Assembly: GCA_041690295.1 (NCBI GenBank)
Contig: JAWLHR010000015.1
Coordinates: forward strand, 15,102-79,101
DNA length: 64,000 nt
DNA from: Bdellovibrionales bacterium
GTDB lineage: Bacteria > Bdellovibrionota > Bdellovibrionia > Bdellovibrionales > UBA1609
Direction: 5' to 3'
In this document: positions 38,702-44,104 of the stretch, piece after piece
Layout: every line of letters begins with the position of its first letter
Numbering within the stretch: position 1 is the first letter of the stretch
The notes under the pieces: model-generated
Told to the model about the DNA's origin: nothing
Database searches by the model: none
What the model saw: the letters and a program-made list of their open reading frames with translations, nothing else
Made by a program: the position numbers and the translations under genes

Positions 38702-41221
38702 ATGCGAGCAAAAGTTGCGGATCCGAATCGAAGATTCAACGGGGGAATTCGGAATCAGCGCGGTAACCTGCCGATCATATTGAGTTCTTTAATGGGCGCG
38801 GTTGTGATTTTGTTCGCTGGAATCAATAATCTCGCCCATATAACTCGCGATCTGAACCGCCGGACCAGTATTCAACAAAGCTATCAAGCCGCTTTGAACA
38901 GTGTTCTGAATTATGTTCGATCGGCTCTTAAGATGCGATGGTGTTTCAGGCCCGACTTCGATCAAGACAGTCCAGCTCAATGTCATTTGGCGCATCCCCG
39001 GTCCACCGAGCGATTGCTGGTGACCACCGATCAGATGGCTTATTTCGATGCGATGAAAGCGATCGATCCTTCCATGCCGCTGGGAAACCCGATCCGCTTG
39101 GACCGGATTCACGGCGTGCTCAAGGTGAGCGACCTTCCCGATGCGCACCCGCTTAAACCCATGTTTTCAACCGTTGAACTTACCGCGATCGAATCCATTG
39201 AAATCGATATTCAGCGGGATGAGACCGCTAACAGCGAAGCGGCGGGAACGGAAACCCACTTGCGAGTTTCCGTGACATTCAAGCCCGCGGATGGCCAAGC
39301 CTTCGCTGATGGTCGCACGATTCTCAAGGCCACTGACCAACTCGCCGTGTACCCCCGCGAACTCAGCATTTTTGGGCTGATCGTGCCGGGCGATTTGATT
39401 TTGGATGGATCGGGCGCGCAGGCCGGAGATGTTTCGATTCCGAACGTGCAAGGTCGGGGTTTGGTGTTTTCCAGTCCCGTTTTTGTCAATCGCAATTTGC
39501 GCTTGCCCGAAGGTCCGCTAAGAGGCGTTCATTTCGGTGATCAGATTGTGATGGGGCGGGGAATTGTGTTTCAGGGCGGTCGGCCCGCGGGCACGACGCT
39601 CAAGGGATCGGTTGAAGATCGCACCTACGCGGCACTTGGGTTGCAGAGGGGAATCAAGATCGATGGCGAGTTGGATATGGGACTCGAGGTTTTCTCGGGC
39701 CGGTCTCCGAGTGAACAATTGGACACTCAGAATTTTCAAAGTTGTTTGAAAGTGAACGCGGCTCGGTTCGAACTTGAAGCCACCAAAGACGCGACGCTGT
39801 TAGTGAAAAGTTTAAGTGAAGGACAATTCCGTTTGGCGTGGAGTCACATGGACTACTTCGAGCCGCAAAACGTGAAGGCGTCGGCCAGCGCGAGCGGGAA
39901 CTTCTTGAAGCAGCCGAAGTTGGACGCGAAAGGTAACGATAAACCCATCGTGCGGGTGTTGGTGAAGTACGATATTGGACCCACGGTGACCGCCTACATG
40001 GCCCGAGGGAACACGCTTACGATTTCACAACCCAACATTTCCTTCGGTAAAGGCAACCAAGGGCAAGGCAACCAAGGTCAGGGAAATCAGGGACAGGGTA
40101 ATCAAGGGCAGGGCAATCAAGGCCAAGGCCAGGGTAATCAAGGTCAAGGTAACCAGGGTGATGATGAAGCCAAGGAGGCCGAGAAGCAGTTCAAGGAGAA
40201 CGCCGGCGAATTGATCATTCAATTAAAAGAAGTGGTTGAGAATGGAAACGCACAGTCCAATCAAGCCGATTTGGAAATTGAACTGAAGAACAGGGATTTT
40301 TTCGCCTCGGCCGTCACGGTTGAAGTGATGGGATATGATATCGGCTACATGAACGCGAGCCAACTGCGGGCCGCCCCTGTCACCTTGGGGAAGTTCGCTA
40401 ATGTGGCCACGCTACGCTATGGCATCACGATGGGAAAATTCTTCGGTAGTGTCTCCCTTGAACTGTCTTATCCAAATACCTTCACCCGTGCCGACCGGGC
40501 GAATCCAGGTCCGGAGGATCTGGAGGTCAACACCGATTGGGAAGGCCTCTCCCAAAAATGCGACGCCGATGAAACGGATCAGGGATATGCGTTCCAGCCG
40601 GTCAACTGGAGCGGTGCCTTCACCGGGTCCACCCGGTTCTCCTGGTCGGTGCGCGAGCCCGCCGCCCTGCCCACGGGATTTCTCTTGGATCAGAACAACG
40701 CCCGCTCGCAAGGCGCGGTGAAACCCCAGTTTCATGTGCGCTCCATCGAACCCCGGTGCACGGTCCAATCGAGCGCCAATTTCGTCGCCGGATTTTTTGT
40801 TTGTGATCAATTCATCATTCAACCCCGCACACAACCCCTGCGCATCACGGGCACGGTGATCGCCAAACAAATGTTCATCGACGCCAGCGCGATTCGCGCG
40901 GGAATCCGCTGGTCCAATATTTATGATCCCGCGGCGGTTTTGGATCTGCGCCAGGCGGGCATTCTGGCGTCCAGATTTTCGGCCAATGCGCCGAGCTGCA
41001 ATCCCACGTTCGATAATCCCTTGTGGCATCCCGTGGCCACCATCGCCATGCGGGATGACCGGTACAGCTGCAACTCCGTTTCCTTGCGCGATCAATTCGA
41101 CAATATCCGATGGACGACCGTGGATCCCGACTGCGGTTTAATCTCCGGCGCTTACACCACCACCTGTAAACGTCGGGCGAATCGCTATGTGATTAAGGAG
41201 CTGGAACGGTACTATGAATGA
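38702..41221 (+). CDS. Large PilX/GspK-like prepilin-type protein (839 aa)
   Basis: NQRG^NLPIILSSLMGAVVILF class III signal without Glu5; Cys-rich C-terminus; coupled to two pilin genes. Confidence 0.65.
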   Translation: MRAKVADPNRRFNGGIRNQRGNLPIILSSLMGAVVILFAGINNLAHITRDLNRRTSIQQSYQAALNSVLNYVRSALKMRWCFRPDFDQDSPAQCHLAHPRSTERLLVTTDQMAYFDAMKAIDPSMPLGNPIRLDRIHGVLKVSDLPDAHPLKPMFSTVELTAIESIEIDIQRDETANSEAAGTETHLRVSVTFKPADGQAFADGRTILKATDQLAVYPRELSIFGLIVPGDLILDGSGAQAGDVSIPNVQGRGLVFSSPVFVNRNLRLPEGPLRGVHFGDQIVMGRGIVFQGGRPAGTTLKGSVEDRTYAALGLQRGIKIDGELDMGLEVFSGRSPSEQLDTQNFQSCLKVNAARFELEATKDATLLVKSLSEGQFRLAWSHMDYFEPQNVKASASASGNFLKQPKLDAKGNDKPIVRVLVKYDIGPTVTAYMARGNTLTISQPNISFGKGNQGQGNQGQGNQGQGNQGQGNQGQGQGNQGQGNQGDDEAKEAEKQFKENAGELIIQLKEVVENGNAQSNQADLEIELKNRDFFASAVTVEVMGYDIGYMNASQLRAAPVTLGKFANVATLRYGITMGKFFGSVSLELSYPNTFTRADRANPGPEDLEVNTDWEGLSQKCDADETDQGYAFQPVNWSGAFTGSTRFSWSVREPAALPTGFLLDQNNARSQGAVKPQFHVRSIEPRCTVQSSANFVAGFFVCDQFIIQPRTQPLRITGTVIAKQMFIDASAIRAGIRWSNIYDPAAVLDLRQAGILASRFSANAPSCNPTFDNPLWHPVATIAMRDDRYSCNSVSLRDQFDNIRWTTVDPDCGLISGAYTTTCKRRANRYVIKELERYYE
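40052..40159 (+). repeat. Coding tandem repeat, (GNQGQ) x about 7
   Basis: GNQGQGNQGQGNQGQGNQGQGNQGQGQGNQGQGNQG; 15-nt units differ at synonymous positions. Confidence 0.9.
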
Positions 41222-41651
41222 TCAAAAAGGTTTCACCTTGGTCGGCGTTTTAATCGCCAGCGTGATTATCTGCACGATCGCCTTCGGTGCGACCGAACTC
41301 ATTCGCGTCAACGCGGCATTGTTGGCCAAAACCAAACAGCAGCGTGAAATGGCCCGGGTGATCGGCAATGTCCTTAACCACGTGATTGAAAATCTCGCGA
41401 GCCTTCAGCGCACGTTCGAGACCTCGGTTTCGACTCGCGAAGCGTTGTTGCGCGAAGACCGGCTGCCGTTCGCCTGGGACCAGTCCAGCGTGGTTCCCGC
41501 CGAACAATGTCCCACCTGTCCGGGACGGATGGGCTACATCATTGAACCGCTTCCGGGCCGACCCAGTTTCAGCCGGCTCACGATTCGCATCACCAACGCG
41601 TATTTGTTTCAGGGATACAGGGATTATGTGTACATCCTCGCCGACGATTAA
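41214..41651 (+). CDS. Minor pilin/pseudopilin (PilV/GspI-like)
   Basis: MNDQKG^FTLVGVLIASVII; Gly instead of Glu at +5; CPTC. Confidence 0.8.
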   Translation: MNDQKGFTLVGVLIASVIICTIAFGATELIRVNAALLAKTKQQREMARVIGNVLNHVIENLASLQRTFETSVSTREALLREDRLPFAWDQSSVVPAEQCPTCPGRMGYIIEPLPGRPSFSRLTIRITNAYLFQGYRDYVYILADD

Positions 41652-42606
41652 AAACCGCAACGGATGGACGATCATGGAGATCGTCATCGCCACGGCCATT
41701 TTTTGTGGGATCGTGTTCTTGACCATGTCGGTGAACATGATGGTTCAGAAAAACGCCGCGCGGTTGAGCAAAGGAGTGGACGCGCAGCTTGATCTGGCGC
41801 TTTTGGATCGTGATTTATCCGCCGATCTGGATAGCATCACGCCCTCACTGGGCAACTTGAAAGTGAAGGATCTCAACGGCAACGACTTTTTTGAGTACTT
41901 CGGCGGACCAACCTCACCCAACTCCCCCAACGCTAATCGCGAAACCGTCCTTGAGCTGAGCGCGACGGGGACAATGGTTTTTGAATTCATCATGGAACTC
42001 GCGACGGCGGGTTCAGCCCGGAATTTTGCGCCGGCGCAAGCTTACTCTTACGCGCTCAATCCGGGAAGCCTGATCACGCCGGCGAGCTTGTCTTATAACG
42101 GGGTCAACGCGAAAAGCTTTTTCACCAACCATTTTTCCAACCATTGGGAGGCCAAGGGGCATTTCCTTTTGTATTCGCCGGGCCTGGTTCCGGATCTCGC
42201 CTCGGGGAAACCCATCGAAGACGCGCCCTCTCGTTTCTACTCCATTCTTGGGATCAGCACGGGAACGGACCTCACGCCCGATACGTTGAGCGGCCTTTTC
42301 AACGACTCTCATCCCACCATCACCGGGAAAACAATCAGATCCATTGACGAATACCTTCGGTTTCTTCCGGCCCTTGGCGGAGCCATGACCCAAGTGGTGG
42401 TCGTTCCCGTCCAAGTGGTGAGGTATCGCTTCGAACCTGATCAAAGCGGAGTCACGGGACGTCTGTTTCGAGGTGTGCGATCGGCCAACGGTTATGAGCA
42501 GGAACGGCTGATCGGGGCCAACATAAGACAGGTCCGGTTCCGCAGGCCTCGCGTGAGTTCGCGTCGACTCGAATTTCAAATCCAACTAGGGGGAGCTACA
42601 AATTGA
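41626..42606 (+). CDS. Minor pilin/pseudopilin (PilW/GspJ-like)
   Basis: KNRNG^WTIMEIVIATAIFCGIV with Glu5; ATG 41626 overlaps the upstream pilin gene. Confidence 0.8.
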   Translation: MCTSSPTIKNRNGWTIMEIVIATAIFCGIVFLTMSVNMMVQKNAARLSKGVDAQLDLALLDRDLSADLDSITPSLGNLKVKDLNGNDFFEYFGGPTSPNSPNANRETVLELSATGTMVFEFIMELATAGSARNFAPAQAYSYALNPGSLITPASLSYNGVNAKSFFTNHFSNHWEAKGHFLLYSPGLVPDLASGKPIEDAPSRFYSILGISTGTDLTPDTLSGLFNDSHPTITGKTIRSIDEYLRFLPALGGAMTQVVVVPVQVVRYRFEPDQSGVTGRLFRGVRSANGYEQERLIGANIRQVRFRRPRVSSRRLEFQIQLGGATN

Positions 42607-43703
42607 AAGCCTTATTATTTTTCTTCGTACTTCCCGCCTTCGCGGGACAACCCGTTTCCATCACTTCAAAAGATCTTCTCATGTTGAACGACGTCAGCTT
42701 CTCGGGTCAGCCTATCGATAGTGACGCCTTTTCCATCGACATGAAGGTTTCGTGCTTCGGCACGAACCTACGGGCGGTTTCCAATCCACTGGTTCTGAGT
42801 TCGAACGTGAAAACGACACTTGTCCTGGCCAAGAAAGACGGATCGACGGGGCAGGTGAATTTTCAGTGGAAAGCGGTCGCGGTTCGCGACGGCGTCCAAC
42901 CGGCCGAGTCCGTCGCGGTCACCGTGAGCCCGCCGGGATTCCTAGGTAGCGCGGTCGGGGCGGCCCAAGGGAATTCAATCGTATTGGCCTTCGGCCAGAG
43001 TGCGGGCATTCAGTCGCTGAAGAAGGCGACGTTCGAACAAATTCCCGTTCCTCCGCAAGCCGGTTCAAAGCCGCTGGTGATCGGAAAAGAGGGGCCGCTT
43101 AAAGCCAATCTCACGTACAATTTCAGCGCGAGCGGACGAACGCTCTATATCGCGGCCTCATTCCCCGGCGCGATTGGTTCGTGCGATGGAGCCTTTTATT
43201 CGCCCCTCATGGTGTTCTTCAGTTCGAAGAGGCCGCAACTTGGAGCCAAGGTCGAGTTTCCTCTGCATCCGCACGAGAAGAAATTCTACTGGCCGGAAGG
43301 ATCACCGGATTGGGCGTTCCTGGTCTTGGACCGCAACGGTAACGGCAAAATCGATTCCGGTGAGGAGATGTTCGGAGAAAGCAATCGGTTCAAAAACGGC
43401 TTTGAGGCCCTGAAGGAGTTCGATATGAACAAGGACGGAAAGATCGACAAGAAAGACGCCGTGTTTTCCAAGCTCCGGCTTTGGTTCGATCGAAACGCCA
43501 ACGGCAAGACCGACTCCGGCGAGTTGGTGCCGCTTGAGGAAAAGACGATCGTCGAAATTGATTTGAAATATTCCAAATCCAAAGAAAGCTACCTCGGAAA
43601 ACGGGGCGAGTTGCGCGAACACTCGACGGTCAAGCTGGCGTCGGGCCAAGCGGATATCGTGGACGTTTGGTTAGGGTCCGTTAAAGAAAAGGGGGAGAAA
43701 TGA
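42603..43703 (+). CDS. Secreted Ca-binding protein with an FrpC self-processing-module-like C-terminal domain
   Basis: Sec signal; YSPL..., FLVLDRNGNGKIDSGEEMFG, NGFEALKEFDMNKDGKID..DAVFSKLRLWFDRNANG....GEL. Confidence 0.75.
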   Translation: MKALLFFFVLPAFAGQPVSITSKDLLMLNDVSFSGQPIDSDAFSIDMKVSCFGTNLRAVSNPLVLSSNVKTTLVLAKKDGSTGQVNFQWKAVAVRDGVQPAESVAVTVSPPGFLGSAVGAAQGNSIVLAFGQSAGIQSLKKATFEQIPVPPQAGSKPLVIGKEGPLKANLTYNFSASGRTLYIAASFPGAIGSCDGAFYSPLMVFFSSKRPQLGAKVEFPLHPHEKKFYWPEGSPDWAFLVLDRNGNGKIDSGEEMFGESNRFKNGFEALKEFDMNKDGKIDKKDAVFSKLRLWFDRNANGKTDSGELVPLEEKTIVEIDLKYSKSKESYLGKRGELREHSTVKLASGQADIVDVWLGSVKEKGEK

Positions 43704-44104
43704 GCGAGCGAAGGAGTAAAATCAAAAGCGTCTTTATTGATCCCAAACTTCAGGTCCGTTATGGCGCCTTGTTCATGGCGGTTTCCATCTTGGTCCATTC
43801 GGTGGTGACGGTGATCATCGTTACCCTTTATAGCGCGAATATGAACTCCGCCACCCCCATTCCCTTTCCCATCATGGTCGCGATTCTGGTGGTGTTATAT
43901 CTCGTGATTTACGGATTTTCGTTCGTTCTCGGTTTTTTGATCACGCACCAACTTTACGGACCGCTGATTCGCATCGAAAATTATCTGACGAGCTGGAAAA
44001 ACGGGGAGAACCCCGGGGAACTCGCGCTTCGGGCGGGAGATGATAAGCGCGTGCAATCAATCGTCCAGCTACTCAATGATATTCTAAAAACACGGTCCCA
44101 TTAG
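43700..44104 (+). CDS. Small two-TM membrane protein with a HAMP-like tail
   Basis: FIDPKLQVRY, two TM helices, ITHQLYGPLIRI...LALRAGD. Confidence 0.7.
   Translation: MSERRSKIKSVFIDPKLQVRYGALFMAVSILVHSVVTVIIVTLYSANMNSATPIPFPIMVAILVVLYLVIYGFSFVLGFLITHQLYGPLIRIENYLTSWKNGENPGELALRAGDDKRVQSIVQLLNDILKTRSH

What the first reader, a model, noticed from the sequence alone, without database searches (positions are those of the whole stretch)
38702..44104. Minor-pilin operon encoding an FrpC self-processing-module-like protein: possible pilus-tip adhesin/processing system
Seen: five genes with overlapping ends: a large PilX-like protein, two prepilin-type proteins, a Sec-secreted 366-aa protein and a two-TM protein. 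The C-terminal 170 aa of 42603-43703 follow, motif by motif as I recall it, the Neisseria FrpC self-processing module (YDPL..., LVRDLNGNGIIDNGAELFG, GYAALAELDSNGD, AFQTLRVWQDLNQDG, ELRTLEE). Established: that module performs Ca2+-triggered Asp-Pro cleavage and covalent clip-and-link in RTX proteins. PilV/W/X-type pilins plus a non-pilin adhesin (PilY1) form type IV pilus tip complexes, and type IV pili are needed for Bdellovibrio prey invasion. Inference: a non-RTX SPM-like protein occupies the PilY1 slot of a distinct tip complex.
Basis: partly seen in the sequence, partly recalled or inferred. Interest (0 to 1): 0.78.

Follow-up and report, generated by a model that had tools for sequence, protein, structure and literature searches.

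The report
Predator pilus tip with disarmed self-cutter
Four linked genes of a predatory bacterium encode three pilin-type subunits and a protein that has the fold of the Neisseria self-cutting module but carries serine where the cutting aspartate sits, so it likely forms a non-cutting, calcium-binding cap on a predicted pilus tip that would help catch free-swimming prey.

Summary
The operon and the SPM likeness are real. The 366-aa protein matches the FrpC self-processing module by sequence (E 1e-15) and fold (Z 19.3). But the scissile Asp-Pro is Ser-Pro here and in 120 of 120 homologues, and in FrpC loss of that Asp abolishes cutting and linking. So 'processing system' is not supported. Four of the five genes form a cassette conserved across Bdellovibrionota; the two-TM gene is not part of it. 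The 839-aa protein is a giant PilX/GspK-type pilin with an inserted beta-solenoid, like ComZ, and closes its own pilin sheet, so the SPM-like protein probably does not do PilY1's licensing job. The cassette is already in print for B. bacteriovorus HD100 (Bd2723-26, Bd2209-12): Tn-seq predation defects and a predicted four-protein complex, but not read as a pilus tip or a disarmed SPM in what I could search. Best reading: a type IVa pilus tip trimer capped by a non-cleaving Ca2+-binding SPM-fold accessory (about 0.68). New variant of a known kind.

The parts
38702..41221 (+). Giant PilX/GspK-type minor pilin, 839 aa (homologue of Bd2726/Bd2212): class III-like leader ending at Gly21, no Glu+5, helix 23-78, pilin sheet closed by its own C-terminal strand 829-838, beta-solenoid insert about 219-749 with a hypervariable distal insert about 346-620
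   Evidence: Gly21 in 55 of 56 rows; AF2 pLDDT 80.3; VIA hits S. sanguinis PilA Z 7.6, GspK 7.5, ice-binding solenoid 7.5, ComZ 7.4, tapirin-like 6.8; segment conservation
40046..40159 (+). Gly/Gln/Asn-rich low-complexity linker inside the giant pilin's variable insert
   Evidence: Sequence; pLDDT under 50 at residues 449-483
41214..41651 (+). Small PilV/GspI-type minor pilin, 145 aa (homologue of Bd2725/Bd2211); this copy has Gly, not Glu, at +5
   Evidence: PF07963 24.6 bits, cut-off 21.2; BLASTP hits to 69 of 147 cassette pilin ORFs, best E 9e-28
41626..42606 (+). PilW/GspJ-type minor pilin, about 326 aa, Glu at +5 (homologue of Bd2724/Bd2210); start codon inferred
   Evidence: Sequence; ComGE model E 0.001, below cut-off; BLASTP hits to 68 of 147 cassette pilin ORFs, best E 8e-37
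42603..43703 (+). Secreted SPM-like protein, 366 aa (homologue of Bd2723/Bd2209): Sec-type leader (judged by eye), beta-sandwich domain about 38-190, Cys51/Cys194 pair, Ser200-Pro201 junction, SPM-fold domain
   Evidence: homologue P0027 = WP_011165116.1 = Bd2723, 37% identity
43200..43205 (+). Ser200-Pro201: the place of FrpC's scissile Asp414-Pro415
   Evidence: Register; Ser-Pro in 120 of 120 homologues
43203..43691 (+). SPM-fold domain: three EF-hand-like loops, the Trp pair (W230, W294) and the D579 equivalent (D354) kept; fourth Ca2+ site of FrpC lost
   Evidence: FrpC residues from PMC7078468
43700..44104 (+). Small two-TM protein, 134 aa; overlaps the cassette here but is not a conserved part of it
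   Evidence: Its family is near the cassette in 3 of 78 loci; two weak paralogues elsewhere in the genome

Best explanation
Three pilin-type subunits and a Ser-Pro SPM-fold protein are encoded together and likely assemble into the tip of a type IVa pilus, where the SPM-fold protein would act as a non-cutting, calcium-folded cap on the giant pilin and likely helps the predator hold free-swimming prey. Steps: (1, inferred) PilD cleaves the three prepilins; the giant pilin, lacking Glu+5, goes on first and, with its own terminal strand, primes assembly with the PilV- and PilW-type subunits. (2, inferred) The fourth protein goes out by Sec, forms its Cys51-Cys194 disulfide and folds its SPM domain around Ca2+ in three EF-hand-like loops. 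(3, predicted in a published model of the HD100 homologues) It docks on the distal face of the giant pilin's solenoid. (4, shown in sequence) Asp is replaced by Ser; (inferred) no anhydride forms, so the protein stays whole. (5, inferred) The variable insert of the giant pilin and the variable loops of the beta-sandwich give the surface that meets prey; genomes with several cassettes would swap tips.
For: Cassette order giant-small-medium-SPM in 60 of 75 loci, SPM-first in 5 more; the other 10 are cut by contig ends or have one ORF unclustered. Whole cassettes duplicated in tandem (L067, L074, L076-78). All 32 giant-pilin-positive genomes that I tested (32 of the 49 non-own positives) have a cassette-type SPM gene, E 8e-67 or better, on the same contig within a few kb in 30; 0 of 15 giant-pilin-negative genomes do. 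Pilin and solenoid folds match the ComZ and cyanobacterial PilX design. PilB over cut-off, with pilT- and pilC-like neighbours; the T2SS locus has its own pseudopilin set. Ser-Pro in 120 of 120 homologues; D419 column Phe in 119 of 120; D414A kills FrpC cleavage and coupling; an uncleavable FrpC SPM still folds with Ca2+. HD100: four-protein models ipTM 0.84 and 0.85, with the Cys pair at 2.0 and 2.4 A and the SPM domain distal to the small pilins. Full Tn-seq, six genes read: fitness 0.04-0.14 on planktonic Vibrio, 0.26-0.77 on planktonic E. coli, 0.77-1.2 on biofilms; Bd2210::tn fails to attach or kill.
Against: No pilus association, Ca2+ binding or lack of cleavage has been measured. Pilin and solenoid Z-scores (6.8-7.6) are in the range that the tool calls common. 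The mini Tn-seq disagrees with the full screen: Bd2209 1.56 and Bd2723 0.84 on planktonic Vibrio, Bd2723-26 mutants 5-6 on planktonic E. coli, and Bd2209::tn still kills E. coli (survival 0.12%) with attachment score 1.5; only Bd2210 and Bd2211 stay dead. The cassette is patchy: giant pilin in 50 of 251 phylum genomes, 0 of 17 others in the window's family. G261 has a second three-pilin set with no SPM gene of its own. Alignment A2 was built from neighbours of SPM hits, so the co-occurrence is partly circular, and kin are not independent. The published models had no negative controls that I saw. The window's small pilin lacks Glu+5.
Confidence: 0.68

Rival explanations
1. The module still self-processes, by another route: the invariant Ser attacks the preceding peptide bond (N-to-O acyl shift at Tyr199-Ser200), giving an ester that is hydrolysed or passed to a prey-surface amine, so the tip sheds or hooks covalently.
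For: Ser is invariant (120 of 120) while the residue before it varies; non-Asp SPM homologues carry almost only Ser or Thr (22 Ser and 2 Thr of 29 other Bdellovibrionota rows; 6 Ser and 3 Thr of 30 long proteins); Pro415, both Trp and D579 equivalents are kept. N-to-O shifts at X-Ser/Thr bonds are known in SEA, GAIN and Nup98 domains (recalled, no call).
Against: In FrpC the strain lies on the bond after residue 414, not before it; Ser attacking its own carbonyl would need a four-membered ring (chemistry, inference). Asp, Ser and Thr before Pro are interchangeable in Asx/ST turns (recalled), which explains the pattern without chemistry. No conserved His or other base is seen near the junction.
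Confidence: 0.08
2. The protein is a true functional stand-in for PilY1: it licenses pilus assembly and is the main adhesin.
For: Non-pilin, Sec-type, disulfide- and Ca2+-loop-bearing protein in a minor-pilin operon, distal in the published model; no PF05567 match in 35 genomes; weak likeness of the N-domain to Gram-positive pilus adhesin domains, Z 5.7.
Against: No propeller; its last strand (348-357) is part of the SPM core; the giant pilin has its own terminal strand, as GspK does where PilY1 is absent; Bd2209::tn still attaches and kills. The PF05567 search rang in 0 of 14 controls, so it shows nothing about absence.
Confidence: 0.1
3. The four proteins form a complex that stays in the periplasm or serves another type IV filament machine (T2SS or Tad) rather than the tip of the PilA pilus.
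For: No machine genes flank the cassette in any context seen; PilD is shared between systems in HD100; the complex is large (about 1,700 residues).
Against: The T2SS locus has its own four pseudopilins and a GspK-like gene; the leaders are type IVa/T2SS-like, not Flp-like; bulky solenoid PilX subunits tip type IV pili elsewhere; an attachment defect fits surface display.
Confidence: 0.14

Closest known systems
B. bacteriovorus HD100 operons Bd2723-Bd2726 and Bd2209-Bd2212 (Abulude 2025, PMC12034629; Duncan 2019, PMC6561027)
   Same: Same four genes, order and sizes; Bd2723 is 37% identical to the window's protein; attack-phase expression, Tn-seq defects and a predicted four-protein complex are in print; Bd2209 is labelled frpC in a table.
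   Different: The window's copy lies in another family of the order, in another gene context (lysS, rhodanese), and groups apart from Bd2723 in a quick tree. The paper's main text has no 'pilin', 'self-processing', 'calcium' or 'EF-hand' and one 'pilus': it does not read the complex as a pilus tip or note the lost Asp.
FrpC/ApxIVA self-processing module (PDB 6sjw, 6sjx; Kuban 2020, PMC7078468)
   Same: Fold, Pro at the start of strand 1, three EF-hand-like loops, Trp pair, D579 equivalent.
   Different: Ser for the scissile Asp; fourth Ca2+ site lost; no RTX repeats; Sec-type leader; C-terminal domain of a 366-aa protein; tied to pilins. The paper calls the SPM exclusive to RTX proteins.
Thermus ComZ/PilA2 and cyanobacterial solenoid PilX tip sets (PMC6561018, PMC13759059)
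   Same: K-type pilin with a beta-solenoid inserted before the last strand; encoded with smaller core pilins; proposed to cap the pilus without PilY1.
   Different: The giant pilin is larger, has a second, hypervariable insert and five likely disulfides, and comes with a dedicated non-pilin partner; the passages read describe none for those systems.
PilC/PilY1 with PilI/J/K (PilV/W/X) tip complexes (PMC12918778)
   Same: A Sec-exported, disulfide-bearing non-pilin encoded with three core minor pilins; multiple sets per genome, as in Myxococcus.
   Different: No beta-propeller, a third of the size, and no need for a donated strand; no FimU-type gene in the cassette.

Membership tests
FrpC-type self-processing module | SPM fold | tested here: met
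   Foldseek E 1.6e-9; VIA Z 19.3, rmsd 3.0, 155 aligned
FrpC-type self-processing module | Scissile Asp before the N-terminal Pro | tested here: not met
   Ser200-Pro201; Ser in 120 of 120 homologues; the same column is Asp in 21 of 30 long homologues, which confirms the register
FrpC-type self-processing module | Three EF-hand-like Ca2+ loops and the Trp451/Trp519 pair | tested here: met
   D243 116, D274 120, D296 120, E307 117, W230 120, W294 120 of 120; alignment; binding itself not measured
FrpC-type self-processing module | Fourth Ca2+ site (D419, D421, D423, D456) | tested here: not met
   D419 column Phe in 119 of 120, Asp in 30 of 30 long homologues; D456 aligns with W237
FrpC-type self-processing module | Part of an RTX protein exported by a type I system | tested here: not met
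   No RTX repeat family on the protein; PF00353 in 0 of 1 genome, 2 of 14 controls rang
FrpC-type self-processing module | Ca2+-triggered cleavage and isopeptide linking | not testable with these tools
   Needs purified protein; D414A abolishes both in FrpC
PilC/PilY1 | C-terminal beta-propeller | tested here: not met
   The C-terminal domain is the SPM fold and the rest a 150-aa beta-sandwich; no PF05567 hit
PilC/PilY1 | C-terminal strand donated to the PilK/PilX sheet | tested here: inconclusive
   The giant pilin model closes its sheet with its own strand 829-838; no complex model of the window's proteins is in hand
PilC/PilY1 | Non-pilin encoded with the core minor pilins | tested here: met
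   Sec leader judged by eye only
PilC/PilY1 | Tip location and adhesion | not testable with these tools
   Only sparse coordinates of a published model were read
PilI/J/K (PilV/W/X, GspI/J/K) core minor pilins | Class III leader with Gly at -1 and a hydrophobic helix | tested here: met
   PF07963 on the small pilin; Gly in 55 of 56 giant pilins; helix 23-78
PilI/J/K (PilV/W/X, GspI/J/K) core minor pilins | K subunit lacks Glu+5; I and J keep it | tested here: met
   Giant: Glu not among the six commonest residues, which cover 51 of 56 rows. Small: Glu in 55 of 56 rows that fit the leader pattern (of 71). Medium: 62 of 66 (of 76). The window's own small pilin is an exception (Gly)
PilI/J/K (PilV/W/X, GspI/J/K) core minor pilins | Pilin fold | tested here: inconclusive
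   Giant pilin: top VIA rows are mostly pilins and solenoids, but Z 7.6 at best, none at 8; Foldseek best E 0.055, ComZ. The two smaller pilins were not folded
ComZ / solenoid PilX | [quoted passage not shown] | tested here: met
   Pilin hits span 49-839 with about 100-120 aligned residues; solenoid hits span 219-749; ComZ aligns 296 residues, Z 7.4, rmsd 13; moderate scores

The most novel reading that the evidence does not exclude
Predatory Bdellovibrionota have replaced PilY1 with interchangeable pilus tips whose SPM-fold cap is still a Ca2+-triggered reactive device: the invariant Ser drives an acyl shift in place of the Asp anhydride and hooks the pilus tip covalently to prey, or sheds it after capture. 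This would be a new self-processing chemistry and the first covalent harpoon on a type IV pilus.
Probability: 0.08. Interest if true: 0.9.

Novelty: new variant of a known kind. Interest (0 to 1): 0.5.

Why it matters
How Bdellovibrio type IVa pili first grip prey is open; a 2026 preprint names the T4aP as a candidate for early contact. This work gives two HD100 operons of hypothetical genes with existing transposon mutants a concrete identity (core minor-pilin tip sets) and testable roles. It also shows that the SPM fold, described as exclusive to RTX proteins, is widespread without its cutting Asp: in this cassette, in Bdellovibrionota lipoproteins and in 9 of 30 long homologues. 'frpC' labels on such genes should not be read as clip-and-link activity.

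Tried and rejected
Single-protein scan of genome contigs found nothing; the alignment scan worked, but its pattern contains Ser-Pro, so its 83 rows were not used as evidence for Ser invariance. Word-based homologue search with the giant pilin found only itself; homology came from neighbours in loci. Profile search of the giant pilin against PDB sequences gave only coiled-coil noise. PilY1 absence: 0 of 35 genomes but 0 of 14 controls, so inconclusive. The N-terminal beta-sandwich has no assigned family: best Z 5.7 in a whole-model search, not folded alone, and the protein atlas gave no answer. No complex prediction with controls for the window's own proteins is in hand, so binding rests on synteny and the published HD100 models. 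Promoter and terminator scans were at chance level. The D478 column does not separate cassette members from cleaving-type ones, since it varies in both; I do not use it. A near-invariant Asp-Pro near the giant pilin's C-terminus (52 and 54 of 56) was considered as a target in trans and set aside: an SPM cuts the bond at the start of its own first strand, and Asn, Thr and Ser occur there. The careful tree did not finish; the quick tree is cited. Earlier scan findings: none returned.
Full report
Observation. The five ORFs are there with overlapping ends. The genome belongs to the same order as Bdellovibrio but another family (kinship columns). The 366-aa protein matches the solved FrpC SPM by sequence (E 9.5e-16). 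Its AF2 model (76-row alignment, pLDDT 87.1) has two domains: a beta-sandwich (about 38-190; best Z 5.7, unassigned) and an SPM fold (Foldseek E 1.6e-9; Z 19.3 over 201-363).

The cutting residue is gone. The structural alignment starts at P201 = first residue of the cleaved SPM, so S200 is in the place of Asp414. Among the 120 listed homologues (of 215 found) this column is Ser in 120, Pro follows in 120, and a Cys six residues before is invariant. The same column is Asp in 21 of 30 long homologues, most with RTX repeats, so the register is right; the other 9 have Ser or Thr. Three EF-hand-like loops, the Trp pair and the D579 equivalent are kept; the fourth Ca2+ site is lost (D419 column Phe in 119 of 120). 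In FrpC the Asp side chain is the nucleophile (PMC7078468), D414A abolishes cleavage and coupling (PMC7846742), and an uncleavable mutant still folds with Ca2+. The plain inference is a Ca2+-folded, non-cutting domain. Ser may be kept because it holds the same turn without reacting (inference). In a quick tree of 91 SPM domains, junction column left out, the 35 cassette rows form one side of a branch, support 99 (a sample of cassette rows; short and identical rows dropped).

The cassette. In 75 loci from GTDB genomes the order giant pilin, small pilin, medium pilin, SPM-like holds in 60, and SPM-first in 5; 6 are cut by contig ends, 3 have one pilin-sized ORF unclustered, and in 1 the ORF was not called. 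Flanking genes differ between lineages, and whole cassettes are duplicated. The giant pilin profile hits 50 of 251 phylum genomes, 17 of 17 in the genus with the strongest hits, 0 of 17 others in the window's family; among 40 relatives only 2 have a real match, the same 2 that have the full-length SPM-like protein. Of 32 positive genomes tested, all have the cassette-type SPM gene, 30 beside the pilins; 0 of 15 negative genomes do. Caveats: A2 came from neighbours of SPM hits, kin are not independent, and G261 holds a second pilin trio without an SPM gene. The two-TM gene is a passenger (3 of 78 loci).

The giant pilin. It has a prepilin-like leader (Gly in 55 of 56), no Glu+5, a 56-residue helix and a last strand at 829-838. 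VIA matches pilins over 49-839 and ice-binding or tapirin solenoids over 219-749; ComZ aligns over both. Scores are moderate (Z 7.6 at most) but agree with one another and with the design described for ComZ (PMC6561018) and cyanobacterial PilX (PMC13759059). PilC/PilY1 license assembly by giving their last strand to PilK; GspK supplies its own (PMC12918778). This pilin looks self-sufficient, so the SPM-like protein is more likely an accessory cap than a PilY1. The most variable part is the insert at 346-620 (majority fraction 0.28; 267-791 aa), while the SPM domain is the most constant domain (0.62; 158-169 aa): the SPM domain looks structural, the insert looks like the specificity part (inference). 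The genome has PilB over cut-off with pilT- and pilC-like neighbours, a pilA-like gene, and a separate T2SS pseudopilin set.

What is in print. Homologue P0027 is Bd2723. Abulude 2025 predicted four-protein complexes for Bd2723-26 and Bd2209-12 (ipTM 0.837, 0.852) with the large protein as hub, and left them without a function. In their deposited coordinates the conserved Cys pair is 2.0 and 2.4 A apart. Along the long axis of the Bd2209-12 model the first residue of the giant pilin lies at -96, Trp of the small pilins at -21 to -55, Trp of the giant core at -23 to +6, Trp of the SPM domain at +25 to +39 and one insert Trp at +63; I read these few atoms only and computed no contacts. Duncan 2019: in the full screen the six genes looked up cost fitness on planktonic prey and little on biofilms; Bd2210::tn is attachment-negative. 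Against a simple story, the mini screen left only Bd2210 and Bd2211 dead; Bd2209 and Bd2212 moved together (1.56/0.52/0.22/2.45 and 1.20/0.42/0.14/1.46 on the four prey states), Bd2723-26 mutants were favoured on E. coli, and Bd2209::tn still killed. So the cap is conditional, not essential.

What I saw of each paper. PMC7078468: parts 1-4 of 9. PMC12034629: parts 1-4 of 6, a term search, supplement rows and atom lines. PMC6561027: parts 2-3 of 5 and supplement rows. PMC12918778: part 1 of 7 and passages. Passages only: PMC7846742, PMC12538545, PMC13759059, PMC6561018, PMC5430801, PMC13190605, PMC6060248, PMC3034196, bioRxiv 10.64898/2026.07.08.737194 and 10.1101/2025.05.17.654431. I found no paper that reads these operons as a pilus tip or notes Ser-Pro SPM domains (searches; listings only for papers not named above). 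Subscription papers and bioRxiv supplements were not searched and may bear on this. The precomputed Pfam family on all homologues is PF26745; I could not see its name. Asx/ST turns and N-to-O shifts are recalled, from no call.

Verdict. A real, conserved four-gene unit. Most likely a type IVa pilus tip set with a solenoid PilX and a disarmed SPM-fold cap (0.68). Rivals: periplasmic or other machine (0.14), true PilY1 stand-in (0.10), Ser-based self-processing (0.08). It works like a minor-pilin tip complex; the fourth protein is neither an active FrpC SPM nor a PilY1 by the tests above. New variant of a known kind; interest 0.5.

Noticed in passing
G000:C17:6761-8095, C17:17335-18849, C12:70434-71483, C12:75189-76406 (outside the window): Four more SPM-like genes in this genome, each apparently a lipoprotein with a Gly/Asn-rich linker and Cys-Asp-x3-Ser-Pro at the junction; none is next to pilins. 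They group with other Bdellovibrionota copies, apart from the cassette. One lies just before a 2188-aa fibre-like gene cluster.
   Followed up: partly
L136:7182-9422 and L137:972-3386: In G137 and G090 a second Ser-Pro SPM-like lipoprotein (746 and 804 aa, long Ser/Gly-rich stalk) lies directly upstream of the cassette.
   Followed up: no
P0128, P0136, P0138: RTX-repeat proteins whose SPM-like domain has Ser-Pro, nested among Asp-Pro ones in the quick tree: the Asp seems to have been lost or gained more than once.
   Followed up: partly
window 41214-41651: The small pilin has Gly at +5 where its family has Glu; two other pilin-like genes of this genome (C7:111384-112517, C2:81251-82117) also have Gly there.
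   Followed up: no
G000:C5:118722-121950 and C11:39143-41094: Two further minor-pilin clusters (531+267+293 aa; 333+323 aa) with Cys-rich C-termini and no SPM-like gene: possible alternative tip sets.
   Followed up: no
window 41111-41137 (giant pilin residues 804-812): A near-invariant W-T-x-V-D-P-D-C-G motif near the C-terminus of the giant pilin; role unexplained.
   Followed up: partly
L138:4550-16648 (G261): Two divergent giant-pilin trios close together share one SPM-like gene; pairs of genes that look like toxin-antitoxin (nucleotidyltransferase-type, by eye) lie between and after them.
   Followed up: no
L079 (first 2.5 kb): The SPM-like gene is split into two ORFs (192 and 175 aa) in this assembly while the pilins are whole.
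   Followed up: no
G090:C183 and G137:C12: SPM-like domains inside open frames of about 5,800-6,000 aa; junction residue not checked.
   Followed up: no
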